Position numbers and translations under genes: made by a program. DNA of 63,596 nucleotides, filler included, from Basidioascus undulatus (lineage: Eukaryota): NCBI GenBank assembly GCA_000826855.1. It is 6 parts of 6 records of this genome, joined end to end, with 100 filler letters (N's around TTAATTAATTAA, not from the genome) between each part and the next. Parts side by side here need not be neighbours in the genome. Positions count along the whole stretch, not along the records: positions 42,097 to 49,198 come from JTLS01001614.1; 5 more parts are not named here. One strand, 5' to 3'. A model generated the notes under the pieces. It saw only the letters and a list, made by a program, of their open reading frames with translations, had not been told where the DNA came from and did not search any database. Positions 27,589 through 56,498 of this stretch are shown piece after piece (the stretch's first letter is position 1; every line of letters begins with the position of its first letter).

Positions 27589-27688
27589 NNNNNNNNNNNN
27601 NNNNNNNNNNNNNNNNNNNNNNNNNNNNNNNNTTAATTAATTAANNNNNNNNNNNNNNNNNNNNNNNNNNNNNNNNNNNNNNNNNNNN
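27589..27688. other. Artificial contig linker
   Basis: 100 nt: N run + TTAATTAATTAA (stops in all six frames) + N run. Confidence 0.98.
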
Positions 27689-34793: not shown

Positions 34794-34893
34794 NNNNNNN
34801 NNNNNNNNNNNNNNNNNNNNNNNNNNNNNNNNNNNNNTTAATTAATTAANNNNNNNNNNNNNNNNNNNNNNNNNNNNNNNNNNNNNNNNNNNN
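34794..34893. other. Artificial contig linker
   Basis: N + TTAATTAATTAA + N, 100 nt. Confidence 0.98.
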
Positions 34894-41996: not shown

Positions 41997-42096
41997 NNNN
42001 NNNNNNNNNNNNNNNNNNNNNNNNNNNNNNNNNNNNNNNNTTAATTAATTAANNNNNNNNNNNNNNNNNNNNNNNNNNNNNNNNNNNNNNNNNNNN
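41997..42096. other. Artificial contig linker
   Basis: N + TTAATTAATTAA + N, 100 nt. Confidence 0.98.
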
Positions 42097-42260
42097 CACT
42101 CCTCTCCGCCTCACGCAGTCTCGCGCTCACTTCTTGGCGACTGCATAGGATCATCGAGCCCTTCTTGTACAAAGACGTCAGCGTGGACGACAGGCGCATA
42201 GTACTACTCGCTCGTACTCTACAGGAAGGCCGAGAATTACTTAGGAACACACATCCACTC
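42097..42260 (+). pseudogene. F-box-like fragment
   Basis: SLALTSWRLHRIIEPFLYKDVSV..LLARTLQE, then runs into the opposite-strand remnant. Confidence 0.5.
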
Positions 42261-43138
42261 ACTCGAAGTCGATAAAAGATCCAAGCTCCACGTACATGTC
42301 TATTATAGTCAAATTAGTGAGAGATTCCTGTGAGTTCAGAAGTCCCCAGTGCAGCATGGCGCCGTCCAGGTGGAATGGCGCGGCAGCATGGGCCCCAATG
42401 GACAAGCGACAGAGCGCGTGCGGAATGAAGAGCAGGAGCTGAATGAGGATGCTTGGTTCCAAACCGTCTGTTGTCCGGTGCATAAAACTGAGGTTGGTGA
42501 CGCGTGAAGTACTACGGAGTGCTTCGAGCACACTGGGGTCCACCTCCTCTTCAACTTCGATATCGAACGAAAGCCACTCGAGTGAAAGCGTGAGAAGGGA
42601 GGGAGAGAAAAACAAGGAAGAATTCTGCGTTGGGTGATTCCTTCGGGGCTATCAGTAAGATGGAGCGTGCTCAGAGAGCGGAGGCCTTGAGCGAGCGATA
42701 CCAGAGCTGCGCAAAGCCCGGTAGAAGAGGTGGGCATCGGAAGGCAGCTGCACCTCGAGCGCATGAAGCTTCGGCAAAATCTCAAGAAGGGCGACGACTC
42801 TAGCCGAACCGTCTCTCGTCTGGAGAGCCCCGGGCTCTGCAATCGTTGTCGTAGTCAAGGTCGAGTTCGAGTCCGTCTCCTCGACGATCGGGTTGACTGA
42901 GAGAGTGGCCGCGTCGGCCGACTCGACATGGAGCCTGTCCACCAGCTTGCCGACCCTCTGGAACGCATGTAAACTGGGTACAAATAAACTCTATATCCTC
43001 GTTGGAGAGCTTAGGGCATCTATAAATCAGTGGGTGGAGTCGGTGGGAGACGAGCGAGTCGAGGCGGGCAAGGTCAGCGGCTTCAGAGACGTGCGAGGCG
43101 ATCTCCGCAAGTTTCTCGTTAGGAAAGACGTTGAGTGA
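42259..43138 (-). pseudogene. F-box/LRR-like pseudogene
   Basis: SLNVFPNEKLAEIASHV..LVSHRLHPLIY, frameshift, GKLVDRLHV, LLEILPKLHALEV, stop, VTNLSF..SQESLTNLTI. Confidence 0.55.
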
Positions 43139-44681
43139 GAGCTTTAATTTGAATTATATGGGGCAGTGAGATATGGGGAGTTTGTAATAGCGAGCTGAGT
43201 ATTGCGAAGCTGATGGGGGGAACAAGTGAAGGGCTAGGGCGCGGTTATCGTGCACGCACAGGGGTAGGTCTCGGAACTTCTCCTCCTGGAGCGAGGTCAA
43301 AGTAAAAATTATAGCTTCCACGAGCTTGGTTCCATGCAGGTCGATAAACCGCGCTTCCATCTACTCGTGTTATTCGTAAAAGCGAGGTGATGCCGGTGTT
43401 GCATGTGTAATCGTACTCAGCGGTTACTTCGATAGTCGCGTCCATTGCTCTGAGTCGAGACCACCGGCTTAAAAGGTTATAATGCAATATATTGTATTAT
43501 ATTCCATTAAATAGATAACATACGGGGGACTATACACCGGAGATATCGCCAATCTGAGAAAGTGCCGCACATTGCCGTCTTCCCCGTCCTACACGAACGA
43601 CAGCGCCGAGGAGAAGCAAGCGAAATGAGTCCCCGCTAGGAGATCCTTCAAATTGGAGGACCGAGCACCCCTATATGTCTGGCAGAAATGCAGCTCCGAC
43701 TGCGGGACTGAGGCGAGTGAAAGTCTTGAGGTGGAAGGAACACAGTACTCCTCGAGGACCGCAATTTTGGTCCCCCGATAGTACAGGAGGAGGACACTGA
43801 TTTTCATGCTGTATTGTAAGGTCTAATTTCGTCAAGGAAAACGGGCTTGGGCTTGGTCTTTGGTCCTGCGCAATGGAGATGCAAGATTGACATCTTTGGC
43901 CGTCGGTGGCCTTGGGTGGAACATGGAGATTCAACAGACTCACCTTCATCCAGTATCAGAGTGCATAAAGCAAATACTTGAGACCTAATGTGAACCTACC
44001 AAGGGGAATGAGCTTTCACTAGAATGCAAAGCGGCGGTGAAAGCGCACGGGGGAAGTATAATGAGCCCATACGTTACACTATGGGCGGGCATTTCCATGG
44101 GCGAATTGCGACGGTTACGATGGCTAGCGGTGAATGGCTCCCAGACTGAGAAGGAAGCGAGCTTGACGATTACAGGCTCCGTGGTTTCCGTGCCACGCAC
44201 CAACTGTTTTCTACCTTCCTGTCTGCGTTTCTCTCAAACACGATCTATGTGCTTTACGACACAAACAAGCCCGGTGCAGGCAATGAGCCCAAGTCGATGA
44301 GGCCCCGTGGTCAGGTCCACTTGGCCATCCTTGAGCTTCAAAGCCTTACATGAAAACTGTTCAATTTGGTATGATCACGTGTGGCTTTACAGTAATGCTC
44401 CATAAACTTCCCTATATGTATTTCGAATAATAAAGCACTACGGCCAGACAATCCTGCCGAGTTCGAGTTTTATTCGCGAAACGTAAAGCTGCAGCGTGAC
44501 GCGCGATTGCTTTCCGCACCTCGGCAAGGGCTCCGGCCGTCCCCAGCCCGCAGGTCGCCTTCGGACCGCTATCATCCCTCCTCGCCCGACTCGCGTGCCC
44601 GCCGTTGGGGCCGCCGTCGTGGCCATCTCCCAAGGCAAACCGAGACCGTCGACTATACCGGCGACGACGAGCACGCCCTCC

Positions 44682-46387
44682 ATGTCGGCAGCGCCCTCGA
44701 CCCCGATCACCTTCAGGGTGCAGCACCCGTACGCCGGCTCGACGAACGCCTCAACCAACGAGCATCCTCTCTTTGAGCTTCGCCATACGCCGTCGCCGTC
44801 CCCGCCAAGGCGTGCTCTACAACCGCCGATCAACCTCGAACCGCCGACTACTCCCCCTCTGTCTCCCTTCGACGAGCTCGTCTCACGCCAGCCTGAGGCT
44901 CAGCGGCCCGGCAACGGCCAAAGCCCGCGCGAGCGCATGAAACGGACTTCCTTGGGACGTGTGCACAGCTTGCAGGACGATGCCGGTCCCGTGGACTTTG
45001 AGGAGGAGGTCACCAATGTTTTGTGGGGGGCGGCTGCTCCGAACATTAATCTCGGGTGAGATCTCTTGCACTTTGGCTCCAAACGTCTCGCTGACATCCC
45101 TTGCTGTTTACTTAGGGGGCGCGGCATCACCTGCATCCCGCGCAAGATCGCAGATCTGCGACTTTTTACCTCCTCCCTGTCCGAACGCCCGCCAACTCCG
45201 CCTGCCTCGCTCTCTACTACCATCCCCTCCATCACTCCTCCGGCATCGCCTCGCATCAGCTCCCCCGGCAACGAGCTTCACCGCTTTGCGGACACCTCAC
45301 CCGCGCCAAGCTTCTTCTCTTCAGTGCAGACCGAGGCCCCTATCATGGGGCGCAGGACGTCCGGCGGCGGCCGACGGCTGCAGGACGAGACGCTTGGCCT
45401 GCTCCTCGCGAACAACCAAATCTCAGTTCTCCCCAGCGCGCTGTTCGCCGTTCACGACCTGGTCACCTTGTCTCTTCGTGCGCACCAATTCGTTAATCAT
45501 TCGGGTACTCGGTTGGGCTGAGATTGCCAGCTTTATAGGTTTCAATCAGCTGGAGGAGCTCCCTCCTGCTATTGCGCAGCTCAGGAATCTTCGAGAGCTC
45601 AACGTCAGCAACAACAAGCTCGTATGTTGGGCCTCTTCCAGTTCCGCTCGGATACATTGCTAATGAGCCACGTTCACAGAAATATCTTCCGGCTGAAATT
45701 CTCACGCTCGATTTGAAGGTCTTCAACCACCACCCTAACCCGTTCTACACGTTCTCCGCCGCACCCCCCGACGCCGCCCAGCCCTCCGCCGTACTCGCCC
45801 GGCCCCACACCATTCTCCTTGACCCATCGTTCCCACCTGTTACCCGCTTCCTCTCGCCCCTCAACCGCCGCGGATCCCGCCGCGTGCCTGCGCTTACCGA
45901 GCTCTGCCTCCGGAGCCTCCTCTCCCCTGCCACCGAAGGACCGGCCAAGCTCGTCCTTAGCTCACTTTATGACGGCTCGGGACCCTCCGAGGACCCCTTC
46001 CAAGTTGGGCAGTACGCGCAGCTTATCAGGGCATTCCGCGTTTCCGCGGAGGACCTGTCATGGGACGGTCTTCCCGAAGACTACGCTGACGACGCGAGCG
46101 AGAACGCCTACTTCAACCGCTCGCCCACGCTCGCAGCGTTTCGCGCGTTCAACCCCGCCCGTGCGTCCTCGTCAGCGGACGGCGCTCCGCTGCGCTTTGA
46201 GGGCGGGCAGTTCTGCGACGTCGCGGAGGAGCGTTTCGAGTGGGTGCAGAAGCTGCCCGGCAAGCCGCGGTTCGGCGCGTGGCGAACGGATGCAGAGGGG
46301 ACGGTGATCGCGCCGGGCTACGCATGGGTCCCCGTTCGTTGGAGGAGCGGGCAGAGTGGCACCCTGCTGCTGGAGGACGAGGAGTAG
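44682..46387 (+). CDS. Leucine-rich-repeat protein
   Basis: LLLANNQISVLPSALF, LSLR|FNQLEELPPAIAQLRNLRELNVSNNKL|KYLPAEI, VPALTELCLR. Confidence 0.85.
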
Positions 46388-47644
46388 AGGGGGGAGGAGG
46401 GATCTCATTCGCAACGCATACACATCGCATACTCATTGTCGTCTTGTACTTTTCTCTAATTTCTGCATCTCCTGCAATTTCGCTTCGCAACATCGTGTAC
46501 AATGTATAAGAAGCGCTCGAACAATTCCCTGGGGCATACAGCCGACTGCAAAGCCCCTCGCGCATGCAAACCAGACTCTATGATTGCCAGTCGCAGCTAA
46601 CGAAGTACGATGATAACGTCCGTCTAGCTCGGACTCGGCCCACAGTGTCATTGAGTCCGCAACTACCTCTCGCAGGTCCCGATCCGTAACAGCGTGCTGC
46701 TCCCGTTGTCTGCAGGTTTCCGTTCAGCCTCGTAATTTTCTTACTCGCGGGCAATGCATACGATGGATTCTAAAAGAGACCCAAGGTACAGATCATATTT
46801 ATTAACAGATATCGTGGATGTCAGACAGGCGAGACTGACCAGTAAGGGGAGACATCCTTGCACCCACAGTGTTATCGCAGCACGGCAACCATACCTCACG
46901 AGAACTCGCACTGACGAGTCATGAGGAATCATTAAAAAATTAAATTGAATTGAGTGGCTTGATCGGTGTGCGCAAAGCTGAAGCAAGCTGAAAGTCGTCA
47001 GAAAGCACGACGCGTGAGCTTCAACCGGCTGTAATGGCCCGCTGGAGCTGTTGACGTTCAGCGGAATGAACGGAGGGCCTTTCAGAGTGCTTAGCTAGTG
47101 TGATGTAACTTGAACTGTTGTTCTGGAATGAGGCAACTTGTACAAGCACTGTCAAAGAGCGCACACCTGATCAAGCATGTACCGTACATCAAGCTTTCCA
47201 GTGAATATCCTTCGCTAGCTGTGCTTAACTTTGTCGCCTCTGTACATTCTGTCCAGTACACCCTCTACTGTATCATACATCCCTGGGGTTCCATGACTTC
47301 GAGGTTTTGCTGATGTGGAGCACTCGAGTCGCCGGCTCGACGCACCGAGCATCGCCTCGTCTGGTGCACCGCTACTGACTTCGGGCTGATCTGATCGCTC
47401 GACCTGAGGTTCTCCCGCTTTACTTTATGAATTCCTGTACTTGATAATTGAAAGCATCGGGATTTATAGAACAAATCTGCTGTACAAGTGTCGTTTCTTT
47501 CGCTCTTTCGAAATCACGACATCACGTGCAAATAATCGCGACTTCAATTCAGGCGCGTGTTGCGGAGACGCGTCTTCTTCCTTGCTCTTCCCGCGGCTCA
47601 TTTTCTCGTTCCCGGGTTAACGTCGCGCAGCCCTCATCGTCGAT

Positions 47645-49198
47645 ATGGGCAAGCAAAAGTATTACGCTGTATGGAACGGACGGGCGGGGAAACCTACGGT
47701 ATACACCACCTGGTTGGTCTTGCCGTGACCAGTTCTAAAGCTCTCCCAATCCTTCGCAGGCTGATTGGATGGCGACGGGGTAGGTCGGAGACTGAGGCGA
47801 TGGTATGCGTTTAGCTAGAGAATTCAGACACGCGTGGTTCAACACACAGACATGATAACAGACTAAAGGCGTACTTGGGATCAAGCACAAGTCGTTCCCG
47901 ACAAGGGAGGAGGCGGAGCTCTGGCTTCAGCAGGTCCCTAAGATGGCCAGCGGTCCAGGTAAGCCTTTTCTGCAGTCGATAGAACCGCAGTATACTGAAC
48001 CCAGTGGACACGGACTGCGTGCAGTGGCCGGGATTAAGAGGAAGAAGCCTGCGACCAAGAAGGGTGCGAATCTCCGTTCTCGTTCTGGTCGATCCGCTGA
48101 ACCCTTACCCGCAGCGAAGGAGAACACGCCATCGGTGCTTCAATACTTCCGAGCGGCTTCCCCTTCTACTCCTCTCGGCGCTTCACCTCGTCCTTCGCGC
48201 ATCCTCGATGCCCTTGACGCCGCTTTCGACGTCTCTGTCGGCGCTCCGATGCCCAAACCATCTACCTCCCCCCGCCCCGCACGCCAGGACGACTTCATCG
48301 ACCTATCGTCGGACGACGAAGGGGACTCGTCGGCCGGGCTATCTTCTTCGAGCGCTCGCGATCCGCCTCTGTCGAAGGAGCAGGCTGCCATCAGACGGCT
48401 CGTCGTGGATGCAGGGCAGTCCGTCTTCTTCACTGGCTCTGCGGGTAAGTTTATGCTCGTTTGAAGGGGGGGTAGCATCGCTGATTTTCCGCTCTTGATG
48501 AACAGGCACTGGGAAGTCCTTACTCCTCCGGTCGATCATCTCGGGCTGCAAGCACAAGTACGGCTCTCATGCTGTGGCTGTCAGTGCGTCGCTTGCTTTT
48601 CCCTCTAAGCGAAGCGACCGCATGCTTACCTAGAGCCGCACCGGACTTCAGCGGCCTCGACTGGAATCGCAGCGCAGGCTATCGGCGGTACCACCATTCA
48701 CAGCTGGTCAGGTGCGTCGCTCGATGTTACCTGCTGTGTGAGGGAGCCGCTAAGTACTATGGCACGCAGGCATCGGCTTCGGAAATGGCGGAACTGCTGC
48801 GGTGATCGCGTGCGGTGAGTTTACGGATGGCTTTTATATCCGGCCCCAGCCCCTGACACGCACCTTCGACAGTTCGGCATAATCGCAAAACGCGCGACAG
48901 GTGGAAGGAAACTCAAGTGTGCGTAGCTCAACCGACCTGAATTAGCTCGTGACCTGAGCCTTGATACCGCAGAATCATCATCGACGAGAGTGCGGGGTCA
49001 TTTGTGGAATGCATTTATGCAGAAGTTGACACACATCGGAACAGTTTCGATGCTGGACGCCAAGCTCTTCGAGCTCTTATCGGAGGTCGGGCGGGCCATG
49101 CGGAGTTCATCACGACCATTCGGCAGCATCCAGGTCCGCATGGCTCCTGTTGACTCTCCCTGTTGACGAAACATGGACCCTTACGCATGCCAACCCAG
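47645..49198 (+). CDS. Pif1-family SF1B helicase with N-terminal RNase H1 hybrid-binding (Cauli_VI) domain; 3' truncated by contig end
   Basis: MGKQKYYAVWNGRAGKPTVYTTW|SETEAM|TKGVLGIKHKSFPTREEAELWL, then LSKEQ..SVFFTGSAGTGKS, VAVTASTGIAA..IGGTTIHSWSGIG, IIDEISMLD and RPFGSIQ. All nine junctions are GT-AG and in frame. Confidence 0.9.
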
Positions 49199-49298
49199 NN
49201 NNNNNNNNNNNNNNNNNNNNNNNNNNNNNNNNNNNNNNNNNNTTAATTAATTAANNNNNNNNNNNNNNNNNNNNNNNNNNNNNNNNNNNNNNNNNNNN
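49199..49298. other. Artificial contig linker
   Basis: N + TTAATTAATTAA + N, 100 nt. Confidence 0.98.
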
Positions 49299-49518
49299 CC
49301 AGTCCTCCGCCGTCCTCGCCCTCCAGGAGGCCTCCGAGGCCTACCTTGTCTCGCTTTTCGAGGACACGAATGTTAGTATAATGTTATTATACACGAATTT
49401 ACGAAAGTCAATACTGACAAATACCTTCCTCCAGCTCGCTGCCATTCACGCAAAGCGTGTCACCATCCAGACCAAGGACATCCAGCTCGCCCGCCGTCTC
49501 CGTGGCGAGCGTCTCTGA
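49299..49518 (+). CDS. Histone H3, 3' end
   Basis: [51 protein letters not shown]. Confidence 0.95.
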
Positions 49519-50090: not shown

Positions 50091-52832
50091 CTACGACATC
50101 CCTCGGAACACGTTCTTGCTCGCGCTCCTCGCGATCTGCCTCCTCCCCGTCCTCCCGCCCTTCCCGCGATCCGCGTCCTCCTCCAGCGCGCCCTTCTCCA
50201 AGCCCGCGCCGAACTCCTCCCTCCTGTGCATCTTCTTCGGCCGCGCCGGGCGGTGGTCATCCTTCTCCGTCGTCTTCGGGATCCAGGACATCTCCATCCC
50301 GCCACCCGCAGTGCGGCGGATGCTGCCCGAGTCGTCGCCGCCGCCGCCGCTGCGGCGCGAAGCGCCGGCAGAGGACGATCTCTGCGCGTGGTGGCGCATC
50401 CGGTCGCCAAAGGTGTCGGACGCGGATGTGAGGGAGGTGCCGTCTGCGCCGGCGACGAGGCGAGGGCGCAACTTCGGTCGAGATTCGGAGGCGCCTCGGG
50501 ACATGTTGGTTGTCCGTCGGTTCGTGCGGTTCGTCTGCTTCGGTTGAGCGGACTGCTGTGAGAACGACGAGCGCTGAGAGGGTTTGCCGCGTTGCAGGCG
50601 GATGTCTGTCCCAGATTGCAGGTAGAAAAGGTCGGTATTCAACCACGGGATACACAGTAGCCAGGGGGGAGGGAGGGGGGAGCGCCGTACCGTCGGGATC
50701 GCTGCTGTCTCCGTCCGACTTGTCCTCGGATCCGCTTCGGCTCTCGTCTGAGTCCGCCAGCGAGTCGCGGTCGCTCTCCTCCTCTTCCTCCTCGACAGCC
50801 GTCTTCCTCCGTTTCTACAAACTCCGATGTGTCAGCCTCCGTCCGTTCCTCGTGTCTGTACTGCACAGCGACGTACGACGTTGTGGCCCGCCGTAGCAGG
50901 GTTGAGCATACCGAACTCCCTGCTCTCCTCGTCGACCTCGAAGTCGGGGTCGGCAAACAGATCCTTGAAACGGTCGTCGGCGAGCACGCCGCTGTCCTCG
51001 TCCGCAGCAGCGGGCTCCTCGCCGGCCTTGCGGGCGCGGCGCTCCTCGACGCGCTGGAGCCTCTCCGCGAGCGCCTTGTTGACCTTGACGTTCGGGTTCT
51101 TGCGCACGGCGCGGATGCGGGACTCGGCCTGCTTGTCGAGCTTCGCCTGGACCTCGCGCTCCCGGTGCTCGGCGTACGCGAACGGGTTCGACACCAGCCG
51201 CGCGGTGTTGTAGAGCTCGAGCGAGACGAAGAAGCCGTGCATGTACGGCTTGAGCGCGGGCGTGCCGACGAGGTGGTCGAGGCCGAGTCTGTGCATCCGC
51301 AACCGTCTACAGCGTCAGCAATCTGCGAGCAAAAGACAGGCTGTGATGGGAGACAAAGGACGTACCCGGCCAGCTCGCCGCGCTCGACGAACTTGTAGTC
51401 GTCCCATACGCTCGGGCCCTTGGAGGCCCCCGCCGCGTCACCCTCCATCTCCTCCGTGACGTTGTCGAGGAAGCGGCACCACTTCGGCGCGGGACCGAGC
51501 TGCGGGACGTAGTACGCGGCCATGTCCGTGCTCTCGTTCGCGAGCATGAGCAAGCCCGTTCGCGGAATGATGTGCATGTGGTTGATGTCATCGGGAGGGG
51601 TGATGGAGACGACGTTTTCCGTCTGCAGGGGTTCGTGCTCGGTCAGTCTCAGATGCCACGTCCAACGCGCGAAAAACGTGGAACGCACAGTGTCCTTGTC
51701 CCAGATTTTCACGACCTTCGCGTCCGCACTCGCAACCTTGCCCTCCGCTTCGCCGCGCCTGTCCGACCCGCTCTCGAGCCACTGCACCGTCTTCACCGGC
51801 AAGCCGTAGCCCTGGTCCTTCGTCGCAAACGGCCGGTTCGCCCGAAGGTCGTACAAGAGCGTGTGGCCGGTGCTGGTTCCCACCGCGAGGTTGAGACCGC
51901 CATGGTGGCTCGCGAGCGCGGTGACCGCGAGCGGGGGTCCGCCGAGCGCGGCGATGCCCGTCGGCAGCAGGCTGCGAGCGGGCAGCTGAAGCGCGCCTAC
52001 CTCCGTCCGGCTTCGAGGGTCCCAGAAGCGTACGCCTGGCTCGTCGCCCTCGGTACCGAAGGCGAAGAGCTGATGTGCCGGATTGACGTCGATCGCGTTA
52101 ACAGCGTCGACAAGGTGGGAGGGGAGCTCGAGCGAGTTGAGGAAGCGGCCTTGGGAGAGGTTGAGGCGGTAGACGGAGGAGCCTGCGCCCGCGACGAGCG
52201 CGTCGCAAGAGGGGAAGTGGTAGGCGATGGCGCGGCCGAAGCGGGGAATGCGGGTGGTGTAGTGGAGGGCGGATTGGGAGTGGACGGAGACGGTGCGGTC
52301 GTTTTGGAGGTGTACGGACTTGGTCCAATCGGAGGACAAGATCTGAAAGGGAAAGTGAATGGGTATGTCAGCTCCCTTGGCAGGCTACGCAACAACTGCG
52401 AAGACGGCCGGAGAATCGGTGCATCCAGCCCCGCCACAGCGTCTTCTCTGGTCGACCGCCCAGCCCTCGTAGCCATAAACTCACCTGGAAGTCCACGTTC
52501 TCCGCATCTGTATGCCGCTCCCACTTCATTCCCAGCTCCCTCAGATCGTACACCCGCACTTGCGGCTTGTACGTCCCCGTCGCCATCGCGAACTCGCCGT
52601 CCGGCGTCGTACGGATGCGGTTGCTCGCCTCGGGGAATCCGAAGTCCTGGATGAGCGAGAGCTGGTGCTCCTCAAGACCACGCTCCTTCGTGCGAGCCTT
52701 GCTGCGCTTTCGCGACTTTTGCCCAAGCTTCTCGGCGGCCAGGCGGCGCTTGTTGAGCCACATCGAGAGAGAAGACGCGCCCGAGGCGGACGCGCCATTG
52801 ACGGTGTACACTTGCACCGCCGGCTGCTCCAT
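50091..52832 (-). CDS. ENP2: Ribosome biogenesis WD40 protein Enp2/NOL10
   Basis: LIQDFGFPEASNRI, ATGTYKPQVRVYDL, SSDWTKSVHLQNDR, LGPAPKWCRFLDNVTEEME, YMHGFF, NUC153-like DDRFKDLFADPDFEVDE. Confidence 0.95.
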
Positions 52833-56398: not shown

Positions 56399-56498
56399 NN
56401 NNNNNNNNNNNNNNNNNNNNNNNNNNNNNNNNNNNNNNNNNNTTAATTAATTAANNNNNNNNNNNNNNNNNNNNNNNNNNNNNNNNNNNNNNNNNNNN
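56399..56498. other. Artificial contig linker
   Basis: N + TTAATTAATTAA + N, 100 nt. Confidence 0.98.

What the first reader, a model, noticed from the sequence alone, without database searches (positions are those of the whole stretch)
47645..49198. RNase H1 hybrid-binding domain fused to a Pif1 helicase: candidate dedicated R-loop helicase
Seen: exons 47645-47712, 47784-47802 (19 nt), 47862-47958 and 48025-48444 onward splice in frame. They give YYAVWNGR..VYTTWSETEAMTKG..KHKSFPTREEAELWL followed by intact Pif1 motifs (GSAGTGKS, TASTGIAA, GGTTIHSW, DEISM). The domain is split over three small exons, so the ORF track misses it. Known: this pattern is the RNase H1 N-terminal/Cauli_VI domain (human FYAVRRGR..FLTW..RFKKF..EA), which binds RNA:DNA hybrids. 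Yeast Pif1 prefers to unwind RNA:DNA hybrids but carries no such domain. Inference: a Pif1 paralog targeted to R-loops, Okazaki primers or telomeric hybrids, unwinding them rather than cleaving. I cannot tell whether this architecture is already catalogued in fungi.
Basis: partly seen in the sequence, partly recalled or inferred. Interest (0 to 1): 0.85.

Follow-up and report, generated by a model that had tools for sequence, protein, structure and literature searches.

The report
Hybrid-binding domain fused to Pif1 helicase

Summary
Exons 47645-47712, 47784-47802, 47862-47958 and 48025-48444 splice in frame with GT..AG introns of 54-71 nt. Exon 1 matches Pfam Cauli_VI positions 1-16 and exon 3 positions 24-44. 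The 19-nt exon supplies exactly the seven missing residues. The spliced product matches an N-terminal-domain profile built from Pif1 relatives end to end (57 bits, E 1e-19). Pif1 motifs I, Ia and II follow. The gene is cut at 49198 by the end of a stitched contig, so motifs III-VI are missing.

The architecture is not new to databases. 60 of the 120 closest relatives of one such protein list PF01693 with PF05970. They include Coprinopsis cinerea, Kwoniella and Puccinia. In trees all domain-bearing proteins lie apart from a well-supported clade of canonical fungal Pif1, so this is a basidiomycete paralogue lineage.

No homologue carries an RNase H catalytic domain. My ten searches found no paper describing the fusion. 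Targeting of the helicase to RNA:DNA hybrids is plausible but untested. The key Trp and first Lys are kept; the second Lys is Ser or Gly.

The parts
47645..47712 (+). Exon 1: start codon and first part of the hybrid-binding domain (aa 1-22 plus 2 nt of Trp23)
   Evidence: Pfam Cauli_VI 21.9 bits, profile 1-16. In-frame stop 8 codons upstream. Donor GTTGGT.
47784..47802 (+). Exon 2: 19-nt micro-exon that completes Trp23 and encodes SETEAM, the middle of the domain
   Evidence: Supplies exactly the 7 residues for Cauli_VI profile positions 17-23. Skipping it gives TGA. Covered by the end-to-end profile match.
47862..47958 (+). Exon 3: last part of the domain (to about 47927, aa 30-51, with H38 K39 S40 F41) and the start of the linker; holds the internal ATG at 47943
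   Evidence: Pfam Cauli_VI 22.0 bits, profile 24-44. Residue mapping.
48025..48444 (+). Exon 4: Ser/Ala/Pro-rich linker with a basic stretch (KRKKPATKK) and an acidic stretch (DDFIDLSSDDEGDSS). From about 48363 the helicase begins (LSKEQ...SVFFTGSAG, first half of motif I).
   Evidence: Translation and composition. Colinear BLASTP to fusion proteins of other fungi. Same open frame as exon 3 and intron 3.
48506..48583 (+). Exon 5: second half of motif I (TGKS, Walker A) and following residues
   Evidence: Motif I is invariant in alignment A1.
48652..48711 (+). Exon 6: motif Ia (TASTGIAAQAIGGTTIHSW)
   Evidence: Weak stand-alone PIF1 hit of 15 bits on this fragment, below the cut-off.
48770..48814 (+). 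Exon 7 (GIGFGNGGTAAVIAC)
48873..48918 (+). Exon 8 (VRHNRKTRDRWKETQV)
   Evidence: The donor at 48919 is needed to keep the frame; the choice broke it.
48973..48989 (+). Exon 9: 17-nt micro-exon, IIIDE of motif II (Walker B)
   Evidence: D206 and E207 are invariant in A1.
49045..49133 (+). Exon 10: ISM of motif II and a Pif1-type stretch (LDAKLFELLSEVGRAMRSSSRPFGSIQ)
   Evidence: Matches the A1 consensus DGxLFDKLExIARxxRxxxxPFGGIQ.
49134..49198 (+). Probable intron 10 (GTCCGC...CCCAG, 65 nt) that runs to the end of the contig piece. The rest of the gene (motifs III-VI, 2B domain) is not in the window.
   Evidence: Spacer at 49199-49298. No remaining Pif1 motifs in any frame of the window.

Best explanation
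The locus is the 5' part (313 codons in 10 exons) of a protein-coding gene of an intron-rich fungus, most likely a basidiomycete. The protein starts with an RNase H1-type hybrid-binding domain (aa 5-51). A linker of about 120 residues follows, probably disordered. Then comes a Pif1-family SF1B 5'-3' DNA helicase.

It belongs to a paralogue lineage found in Agaricomycetes, Tremellomycetes and Pucciniales. This lineage exists beside the canonical, domain-less fungal Pif1.

Proposed mechanism (inferred, not shown): the small domain binds the RNA:DNA duplex through the conserved Trp and Lys. That tethers the helicase, through the flexible linker, to R-loops, Okazaki primers or telomerase-RNA:DNA hybrids. 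The helicase then unwinds the hybrid rather than cutting it, since no nuclease domain is present.

The domain starts at residue 5, which leaves no room for a mitochondrial presequence, and the linker carries a basic stretch. I therefore expect a nuclear enzyme.

My odds: real fusion gene and member of this family, about 0.9. The domain binds hybrids and targets the helicase to them, about 0.5.
For: Shown:
- Exon structure, with 9 of 9 introns GT..AG and 54-71 nt long.
- Cauli_VI hits on exons 1 and 3, with the micro-exon filling the gap exactly.
- The spliced product matches a profile of Pif1-linked domains end to end (57 bits, E 1.2e-19, model 1-46, aa 5-51).
- The second half of the domain and the start of the helicase lie in one uninterrupted open frame (47859-48464).
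- Colinear BLASTP of aa 2-312 to fusion proteins: P0066 37% identity, E 6.6e-53; 55% identity to Pif1 over the helicase part.
- 60 of 120 relatives list PF01693+PF05970. 48 of 48 rechecked carry both.
- The Coprinopsis N-terminus hits solved RNase H1 hybrid-binding domains 1qhk (E 1.1e-8) and 3bsu (E 2.5e-5). Its helicase hits yeast Pif1 5o6b (E 5e-118).
- The AF2 model of P0008 gives beta-beta-alpha-beta-alpha at residues 9-58 with pLDDT 88-97. Residues 59-93 fall below 50 and the helicase is confident.
- The canonical Pif1 clade is separated from all domain-bearing rows (FastTree 100, IQ-TREE SH-aLRT 99).

For the mechanism:
- The equivalent of human W43 is Trp in 51 of 60 family domains and in the window (W23). 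The K59 equivalent is Lys in 49 of 60 and in the window (K39).
- W43A abolishes hybrid binding by human RNase H1, and K59A/K60A lowers it about ten-fold (passage read in PMC6846478).
- Yeast Pif1 and Rrm3 suppress RNase H-sensitive instability at tRNA genes (passage in review PMC5541304).
Against: - No transcript evidence for the splice junctions or the start codon.
- The gene is truncated, so an intact helicase is assumed from relatives.
- The K60 equivalent is Ser here, and Ser (43) or Gly (14) in 57 of 60 family domains, never Lys among the three commonest residues. The F58 equivalent is His (31 of 60). The binding surface therefore differs from RNase H1, and specificity could differ too.
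- The complete spliced product was not scored against Pfam itself.
- The window protein's place inside the domain-bearing side of the tree is unresolved (support 88-89, 28-29% of columns filled). Its highest helicase identity (56-57%) is to a canonical-clade row, P0105.
- Both trees are unrooted and use hand-picked rows.
- 53 of 120 close relatives show no domain by the profile. Many of these have short N-termini, which may mean missed exons or real loss; I could not tell which.
Confidence: 0.6

Rival explanations
1. The fusion is real, but the domain no longer reads RNA:DNA hybrids specifically. With the second lysine lost and Phe replaced by His, it may bind dsRNA or duplex DNA in general. 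It could act as a processivity clamp or an autoinhibitory or regulatory module. It could be a protein-contact surface.
For: The family signature is H-K-[S/G]-F in place of the F/Y-K-K-F seen in the two solved RNase H1 domains. K59A/K60A lowers hybrid affinity about ten-fold in the human domain (passage in PMC6846478).
Against: Trp, the first Lys, the Gly-Arg motif and the final Phe are strongly conserved over three basidiomycete groups. The fold is predicted with high confidence. That pattern argues for a retained nucleic-acid-binding surface.
Confidence: 0.25
2. Gene-model artefact: the three small upstream exons are not part of the helicase mRNA. They would belong to a separate small gene, or translation would start at the internal ATG 47943 and give a plain Pif1.
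For: There is no RNA evidence. The intron 1 donor, GTTGGT, is weak. A 19-nt exon is unusual. An in-frame ATG exists at 47943.
Against: - The second half of the domain is in the same stop-free frame as helicase motif I, whatever happens to intron 3.
- The three exons restore a complete domain without a residue missing.
- 59 proteins from other fungi carry a full-length domain at the same place, residues 5-8 onward.
- An alternative internal start could still coexist with the fusion.
Confidence: 0.05
3. A transposon-borne (Helitron-type) Pif1-like helicase that captured a Cauli_VI fragment, not a cellular genome-maintenance gene.
For: Helitrons carry Pif1-like helicases. A Pleurotus Helitron was reported to carry a captured gene with a PF01693 domain (passages in PMC4289320).
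Against: - No Rep or other transposase family is among the Pfam families of 120 relatives or of the 48 rechecked.
- Relatives hit yeast and human PIF1 structures at E 1e-118 to 1e-90, against 1e-14 for Helraiser.
- 47 of 48 have the Pif1 2B domain.
- The gene has 9 spliceosomal introns.
- In that paper the PF01693 gene is a separate captured gene, not fused to the helicase.
Confidence: 0.03
4. A decaying or truncated copy: a pseudogene whose 3' part is lost or broken.
For: Only 313 codons are visible. Tandem duplicates of this gene family are common in Agaricomycetes, and duplicates often decay.
Against: No stop or frameshift in 10 exons. All catalytic residues of motifs I and II are intact. 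The cut coincides with an assembly spacer, not with a lesion.
Confidence: 0.05

Closest known systems
Annotated basidiomycete 'ATP-dependent DNA helicase PIF1' proteins carrying PF01693+PF05970, e.g. Coprinopsis cinerea okayama7 (P0008), Hypsizygus marmoreus (P0007), Kwoniella newhampshirensis (P0127), Puccinia striiformis (P0190)
   Same: Same order of parts: the domain at residues 5-8 onward, a variable linker, then the Pif1 core. Same H-K-S-F signature. Colinear alignment over aa 2-312.
   Different: Only 33-37% identity over the whole visible part. The linker is longer (motif I at residue 199, against a median of 145). No close orthologue was found in the protein collection. None of these proteins has been studied, as far as my paper searches show.
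Canonical Pif1/Pfh1/PIF1 helicases (S. cerevisiae Pif1, PDB 5o6b; human PIF1, PDB 6hph)
   Same: SF1B helicase core. Motifs I, Ia and II and the stretch before motif III are present in the window. Relatives match these structures at E 1e-118 to 1e-90.
   Different: Canonical fungal Pif1 proteins have no hybrid-binding domain (no hit in the 16 canonical-clade rows). They form a separate, well-supported clade. That yeast Pif1 prefers RNA:DNA substrates is recalled from the literature and was not read here.
RNase H1 hybrid-binding domain (human, PDB 3bsu; S. cerevisiae, PDB 1qhk; Pfam PF01693 Cauli_VI)
   Same: Homologous small domain at the N-terminus, tied to the catalytic part by a flexible linker. 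The conserved Trp and first Lys are kept.
   Different: The effector is a helicase, not the RNase H nuclease. The second Lys is Ser or Gly, and Phe is mostly His.
Other R-loop helicases (Sen1/senataxin and similar)
   Same: Proposed job: removing RNA:DNA hybrids by unwinding (mentioned in review PMC5541304).
   Different: Different helicase families. As far as I recall they have no RNase H1-type domain; this was not tested here.

Membership tests
RNase H1 N-terminal hybrid-binding domain (Pfam PF01693, Cauli_VI) | Sequence match to the family profile above the curated cut-off (21 bits) | tested here: met
   Exon 1 scores 21.9 bits (profile 1-16) and exon 3 scores 22.0 bits (profile 24-44), each alone. 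The spliced product was scored only against my own profile of Pif1-linked domains (57 bits, E 1.2e-19), not against Pfam.
RNase H1 N-terminal hybrid-binding domain (Pfam PF01693, Cauli_VI) | Conserved Trp of the binding surface (human W43) | tested here: met
   W23 in the window; Trp in 51 of 60 family domains. Mapping goes through the 3bsu alignment of P0008.
RNase H1 N-terminal hybrid-binding domain (Pfam PF01693, Cauli_VI) | Lys pair of the binding surface (human K59, K60) | tested here: inconclusive
   The K59 equivalent is kept (K39; Lys in 49 of 60). The K60 equivalent is Ser40 (Ser 43, Gly 14 of 60).
RNase H1 N-terminal hybrid-binding domain (Pfam PF01693, Cauli_VI) | Small beta-beta-alpha-beta-alpha fold | tested here: met
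   AF2 model of the homologue P0008, not of the window protein: E9-14, E20-22, H25-32, E39-43, H46-58, pLDDT 88-97. That this is the fold of the solved domains is recalled; I ran no structure comparison.
RNase H1 N-terminal hybrid-binding domain (Pfam PF01693, Cauli_VI) | Binds RNA:DNA hybrid in preference to dsDNA | not testable with these tools
   Needs a binding assay.
Pif1 family SF1B helicase (Pfam PF05970) | Walker A (motif I) and Walker B (motif II) | tested here: met
   GSAGTGKS (split by intron 4) and IIIDEISM (split by intron 9). These residues are invariant in A1.
Pif1 family SF1B helicase (Pfam PF05970) | Family-level sequence similarity to PIF1 proteins | tested here: met
   BLASTP of the spliced product gives 50-57% identity over 136-140 aa to PF05970-positive proteins, E 1e-42 to 1e-44. 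Single exons do not reach the Pfam cut-off: 15 bits against 25.9.
Pif1 family SF1B helicase (Pfam PF05970) | Pif1-type stretch between motifs II and III | tested here: met
   LDAKLFELLSEVGRAMRSSSRPFGSIQ fits the A1 consensus DGxLFDKLExIARxxRxxxxPFGGIQ. That this stretch is the family's 'signature motif' is recalled.
Pif1 family SF1B helicase (Pfam PF05970) | Motifs III-VI and the 2B (SH3-like) domain | not testable with these tools
   The contig piece ends at 49198. No genome is held. 47 of 48 relatives have Pif1_2B_dom.
RNase H1 (complete enzyme) | RNase H catalytic domain after the hybrid-binding domain | tested here: not met
   A helicase follows the domain in the window. PF00075 appears in none of the 120 rows, nor among the 24 families found in 48 relatives. 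The window's own 3' end is unseen.

The most novel reading that the evidence does not exclude
Basidiomycota own a second, lineage-specific Pif1 helicase. It captured the RNase H1 hybrid-binding domain before the split of rusts, Tremellomycetes and mushrooms and has kept it since, with a remodelled H-K-[S/G]-F surface. It would be a nuclease-free enzyme aimed at RNA:DNA hybrids, removing R-loops, primers or telomeric hybrids by unwinding. That would make it a natural experiment showing that hybrid removal is a core, selectable Pif1 activity.
Probability: 0.45. Interest if true: 0.6.

Novelty: new member of a known kind. Interest (0 to 1): 0.4.

Why it matters
Pif1 helicases are implicated in R-loop and hybrid removal, but in the model yeasts nothing in the protein points it at hybrids. 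A conserved natural fusion to the module that RNase H1 uses to find hybrids is independent, evolutionary support for that role.

It also offers a ready-made test system. One can compare the enzyme with and without the domain in a tractable mushroom such as Coprinopsis cinerea.

There is a practical lesson for annotation. The domain is split over micro-exons (19 nt here). Public gene models therefore often miss it or break it, and surveys of domain architecture undercount it.

The gene in this window adds a divergent member, but it does not reveal a new kind of system.

Tried and rejected
- Whole genome for the 3' end: none is held.
- RNA evidence: no RNA holder was listed for 46800-49198.
- Earlier findings of this scan: nothing by place, words or sequence.
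- Protein search with exon 4 alone (139 aa, longer proteins): 4971 candidates, none at E 1e-3 or better. The linker is too divergent.
- Metagenome scan with exon 4: 600 pattern matches, none confirmed.
- Motif regex over six frames for the missing helicase motifs elsewhere in the window: nothing. Motif I itself escapes such a scan because an intron splits it.
- PDB searches with single exons: nothing useful. P0261 turned out not to be an N-terminal fragment.
- ESM Atlas: the best named cluster was 'ATP-dependent DNA helicase family protein', Basidiomycota, score 0.78. That is below the level that counts, so it is a lead only.
- First exon 8 donor choice (48916) broke the frame; 48918 restores it.
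- Upstream ORFs in 42097-47400: no informative Pfam hit beyond a weak LRR match.
- Paper searches: no paper describing an RNase H1-domain-Pif1 fusion. The only paper holding both PF01693 and PF05970 concerns Helitron-captured genes in Pleurotus (PMC4289320, passages read). PMC4556806 mentions Pif1-like helicase gain and loss in Cryptococcus gattii without domain detail (passages read). The library lacks most subscription journals, and no supplements were consulted.
- I did not identify the organism.

Full report
**What the window is.** The window is not one stretch of genome. Five spacers of N44-TTAATTAATTAA-N44 (27589, 34794, 41997, 49199, 56399) stitch six pieces together. The finding lies in piece 42097-49198 (55.8% G+C). 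Its reported end, 49198, is the end of that piece. No whole genome is held.

**Check of the observation.**
- I extended the model to ten exons: 47645-47712, 47784-47802, 47862-47958, 48025-48444, 48506-48583, 48652-48711, 48770-48814, 48873-48918, 48973-48989 and 49045-49133. The nine introns are 54-71 nt long and all GT..AG.
- The product (312 codons translated, plus a 313th, CAG, ending at 49133) reads: N-terminal domain, linker, then GSAGTGKS, TASTGIAA..GGTTIHSW and IIIDEISM.
- Pfam on single, unspliced exons gave Cauli_VI for exon 1 (21.9 bits, profile 1-16) and for exon 3 (22.0 bits, profile 24-44), against a cut-off of 21.
- The 19-nt exon 2 gives exactly the seven residues for profile positions 17-23.
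- Without exon 2 the frame hits TGA. With intron 1 or intron 2 retained it hits a stop. A stop lies 8 codons upstream of the ATG.
- Intron 3 is 66 nt and stop-free. Exon 3, intron 3 and exon 4 therefore form one open frame, 47859-48464. The second half of the domain and the start of the helicase are in one reading frame whatever the splicing.
- As a control I scanned all six frames of the 63.6-kb window with a profile of the domain. Only these two pieces scored (E 6.5e-6 and 2.5e-4). Everything else had E above 1.

**Relatives.**
- A search with exon 4 alone found nothing.
- A search with the open frame 47859-48464 found four weak hits. One was P0004 (Ephemerocybe angulata), listed with PF05970 and PF01693. 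A fresh scan confirmed it: Cauli_VI at residues 46-86 with 42.6 bits, and PIF1 with 142 bits.
- With P0004 as query, 60 of the 120 best proteins list PF01693 together with PF05970 (my count from the table). Among them are Coprinopsis cinerea, Hypsizygus, Paxillus, Phanerochaete, Grifola and Serendipita.
- A profile that I built from these N-termini finds the domain, whole or in part, in 67 of those 120. It finds it in 19 of the 150 representatives returned by the exhaustive search.
- Named representatives show the fusion outside the mushrooms as well: Kwoniella newhampshirensis, two Cryptococcus sp. strains, Puccinia striiformis and, as a partial hit, Austropuccinia psidii.
- 48 of 48 selected fusion proteins carry both families on rescanning. 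47 also carry the Pif1 2B domain. No RNase H catalytic family is among the 24 families found.

**The window protein against this family.**
- The spliced product matches the domain profile from first to last position (57 bits, E 1.2e-19, aa 5-51).
- It aligns colinearly over aa 2-312 with fusion proteins. The best is P0066, at 37% identity and E 6.6e-53.
- Over the helicase part it is 50-57% identical to Pif1 proteins.
- It has no close orthologue in the collections searched.

**Paralogue or standard Pif1?** I built two trees on the helicase columns only.
- The first is a FastTree of 72 rows: 71 proteins hand-picked from the 283 fetched, plus the window. I chose named species, the best hits and nine representatives.
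- The second is an IQ-TREE quick search on 49 of those rows.
- Both recover a strongly supported clade (100 and 99) that holds only rows without the domain.
- Lookups show this clade contains Eremothecium, Microsporum, Spizellomyces, Wallemia, Microbotryum, Pseudozyma, Thecaphora, Jaapia and a second Mycena chlorophos protein. It is the canonical fungal Pif1.
- All domain-bearing rows, including the window, lie on the other side.
- Mycena chlorophos has one protein of each kind (P0032 and P0096).

There are caveats:
- The trees are unrooted.
- The window row fills only 28-29% of the columns, and its exact neighbours are unresolved.
- 'Domain-less' rows scattered inside the domain-bearing side often have very short N-termini (motif I at residue 32-106, against a median of 145). 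That fits missed micro-exons as well as it fits real loss.

**What the domain is likely to do.**
- The N-terminus of the Coprinopsis protein hits the solved hybrid-binding domains of yeast RNase H1 (1qhk, E 1.1e-8) and human RNase H1 (3bsu, E 2.5e-5).
- I mapped residues through that alignment onto 60 full-length domains from 59 proteins; 15 proteins with only partial hits were left out. The equivalent of human W43 is Trp in 51 of 60. K59 is Lys in 49 (Arg in 5). K60 is Ser in 43 and Gly in 14. F58 is His in 31, Phe in 10 and Tyr in 8.
- The window has W23, H38, K39, S40 and F41.
- A passage in PMC6846478 states that W43, K59 and K60 form the binding surface. It reports that W43A or deletion of F58-K60 abolishes hybrid binding, and that K59A/K60A lowers it about ten-fold.
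- The family thus keeps the most critical residue and one lysine but has a remodelled edge. Hybrid binding is plausible, not assured.
- An AF2 model of P0008 (alignment of 48 sequences, mean pLDDT 81.9) shows a confident beta-beta-alpha-beta-alpha unit at residues 9-58. Residues 59-93 have low confidence, and the helicase is confident. This suggests a small reader domain on a flexible tether.
- In the window the tether is 123 residues rich in Ser, Ala and Pro.

**Mechanism proposed (inference).** The tethered domain docks on an RNA:DNA duplex and raises the local concentration of a 5'-3' helicase, which strips the RNA. There is no nuclease. With the domain at residue 5 there is no room for a mitochondrial presequence, so I expect nuclear action. 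The canonical paralogue would keep the mitochondrial role. This last point is untested.

**Comparison with what is known.** The helicase is a Pif1 family member as far as it can be seen. The domain is a member of PF01693. The combination is catalogued in public protein sets but appears undescribed. My ten paper searches found no paper on it. The only paper holding both Pfam numbers is about separate genes captured by Helitrons. The library misses most subscription journals.

**Verdict.** The architecture is real, conserved and ancient within Basidiomycota. It is not new to databases but is unstudied. The window adds a divergent, truncated member. The functional reading is a good hypothesis with one structural caveat.

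Noticed in passing
window 27589-27688, 34794-34893, 41997-42096, 49199-49298, 56399-56498: The window is a chain of separate contig pieces joined by N44-TTAATTAATTAA-N44 spacers. The five pieces after the first are each about 7.1 kb and shrink by 1-3 bases from one to the next. Features that touch a spacer are cut by assembly, not by biology.
   Followed up: partly
window 49299-49518 (+): 3' end of a histone gene with one short intron. It gives a Pfam Histone hit at profile 76-99 and ends ...[12 protein letters not shown], which by recall looks like H3. It is cut at its 5' side by the spacer.
   Followed up: partly
window 50639-52384 (-): Gene for a NOL10/Enp2-like nucleolar WD40 protein: Beta-prop_NOL10_N 98.8 bits, NOL10_2nd, NUC153.
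   Followed up: partly
window 47959-48024: Intron 3 is 66 nt, in frame and free of stops. Retaining it would insert 22 residues into the linker rather than truncate the protein.
   Followed up: yes
proteins P0054, P0042, P0005, P0124, P0006: In two public models the domain is split in two by an insert at profile positions 19-21 (P0054) and 24-26 (P0042). These are the places where the window has introns 1 and 2. This looks like introns retained in the public gene models, with conserved intron positions. P0005 (905 aa) holds a second, broken copy of the domain at residues 541-608 and looks like two tandem genes merged; P0124 (1165 aa, four matched stretches, no domain hit) may be another merged model. 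P0006 has two complete domains in tandem.
   Followed up: partly
table (locus tags): Pif1 paralogues sit next to or near each other in several mushrooms: Marasmius oreades E1B28_001399 and 001400; Tetrapyrgos nigripes D9758_000091 and 000092; Volvariella AX16_002573 and 002577; Rhodofomes EVJ58_g60 and g64. Phanerochaete sordida has four on one contig. This points to repeated tandem duplication of this helicase.
   Followed up: no
window 48280-48330 (linker, DDFIDLSSDDEGDSS); P0004 and P0001: A short hydrophobic core followed by an acidic, Ser-rich run recurs in the linkers of relatives (IIVVSDSDDDE and VIVIDSDSEDE in P0004, FIDLTDDDD in P0001). By recall this resembles a SUMO-interacting motif. 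Not tested.
   Followed up: no
window 48973-48989 and 47784-47802: The gene has two micro-exons of 17 and 19 nt. Motifs I and II are each split by an intron, so ORF- or motif-based scans miss the helicase as well as the domain.
   Followed up: yes
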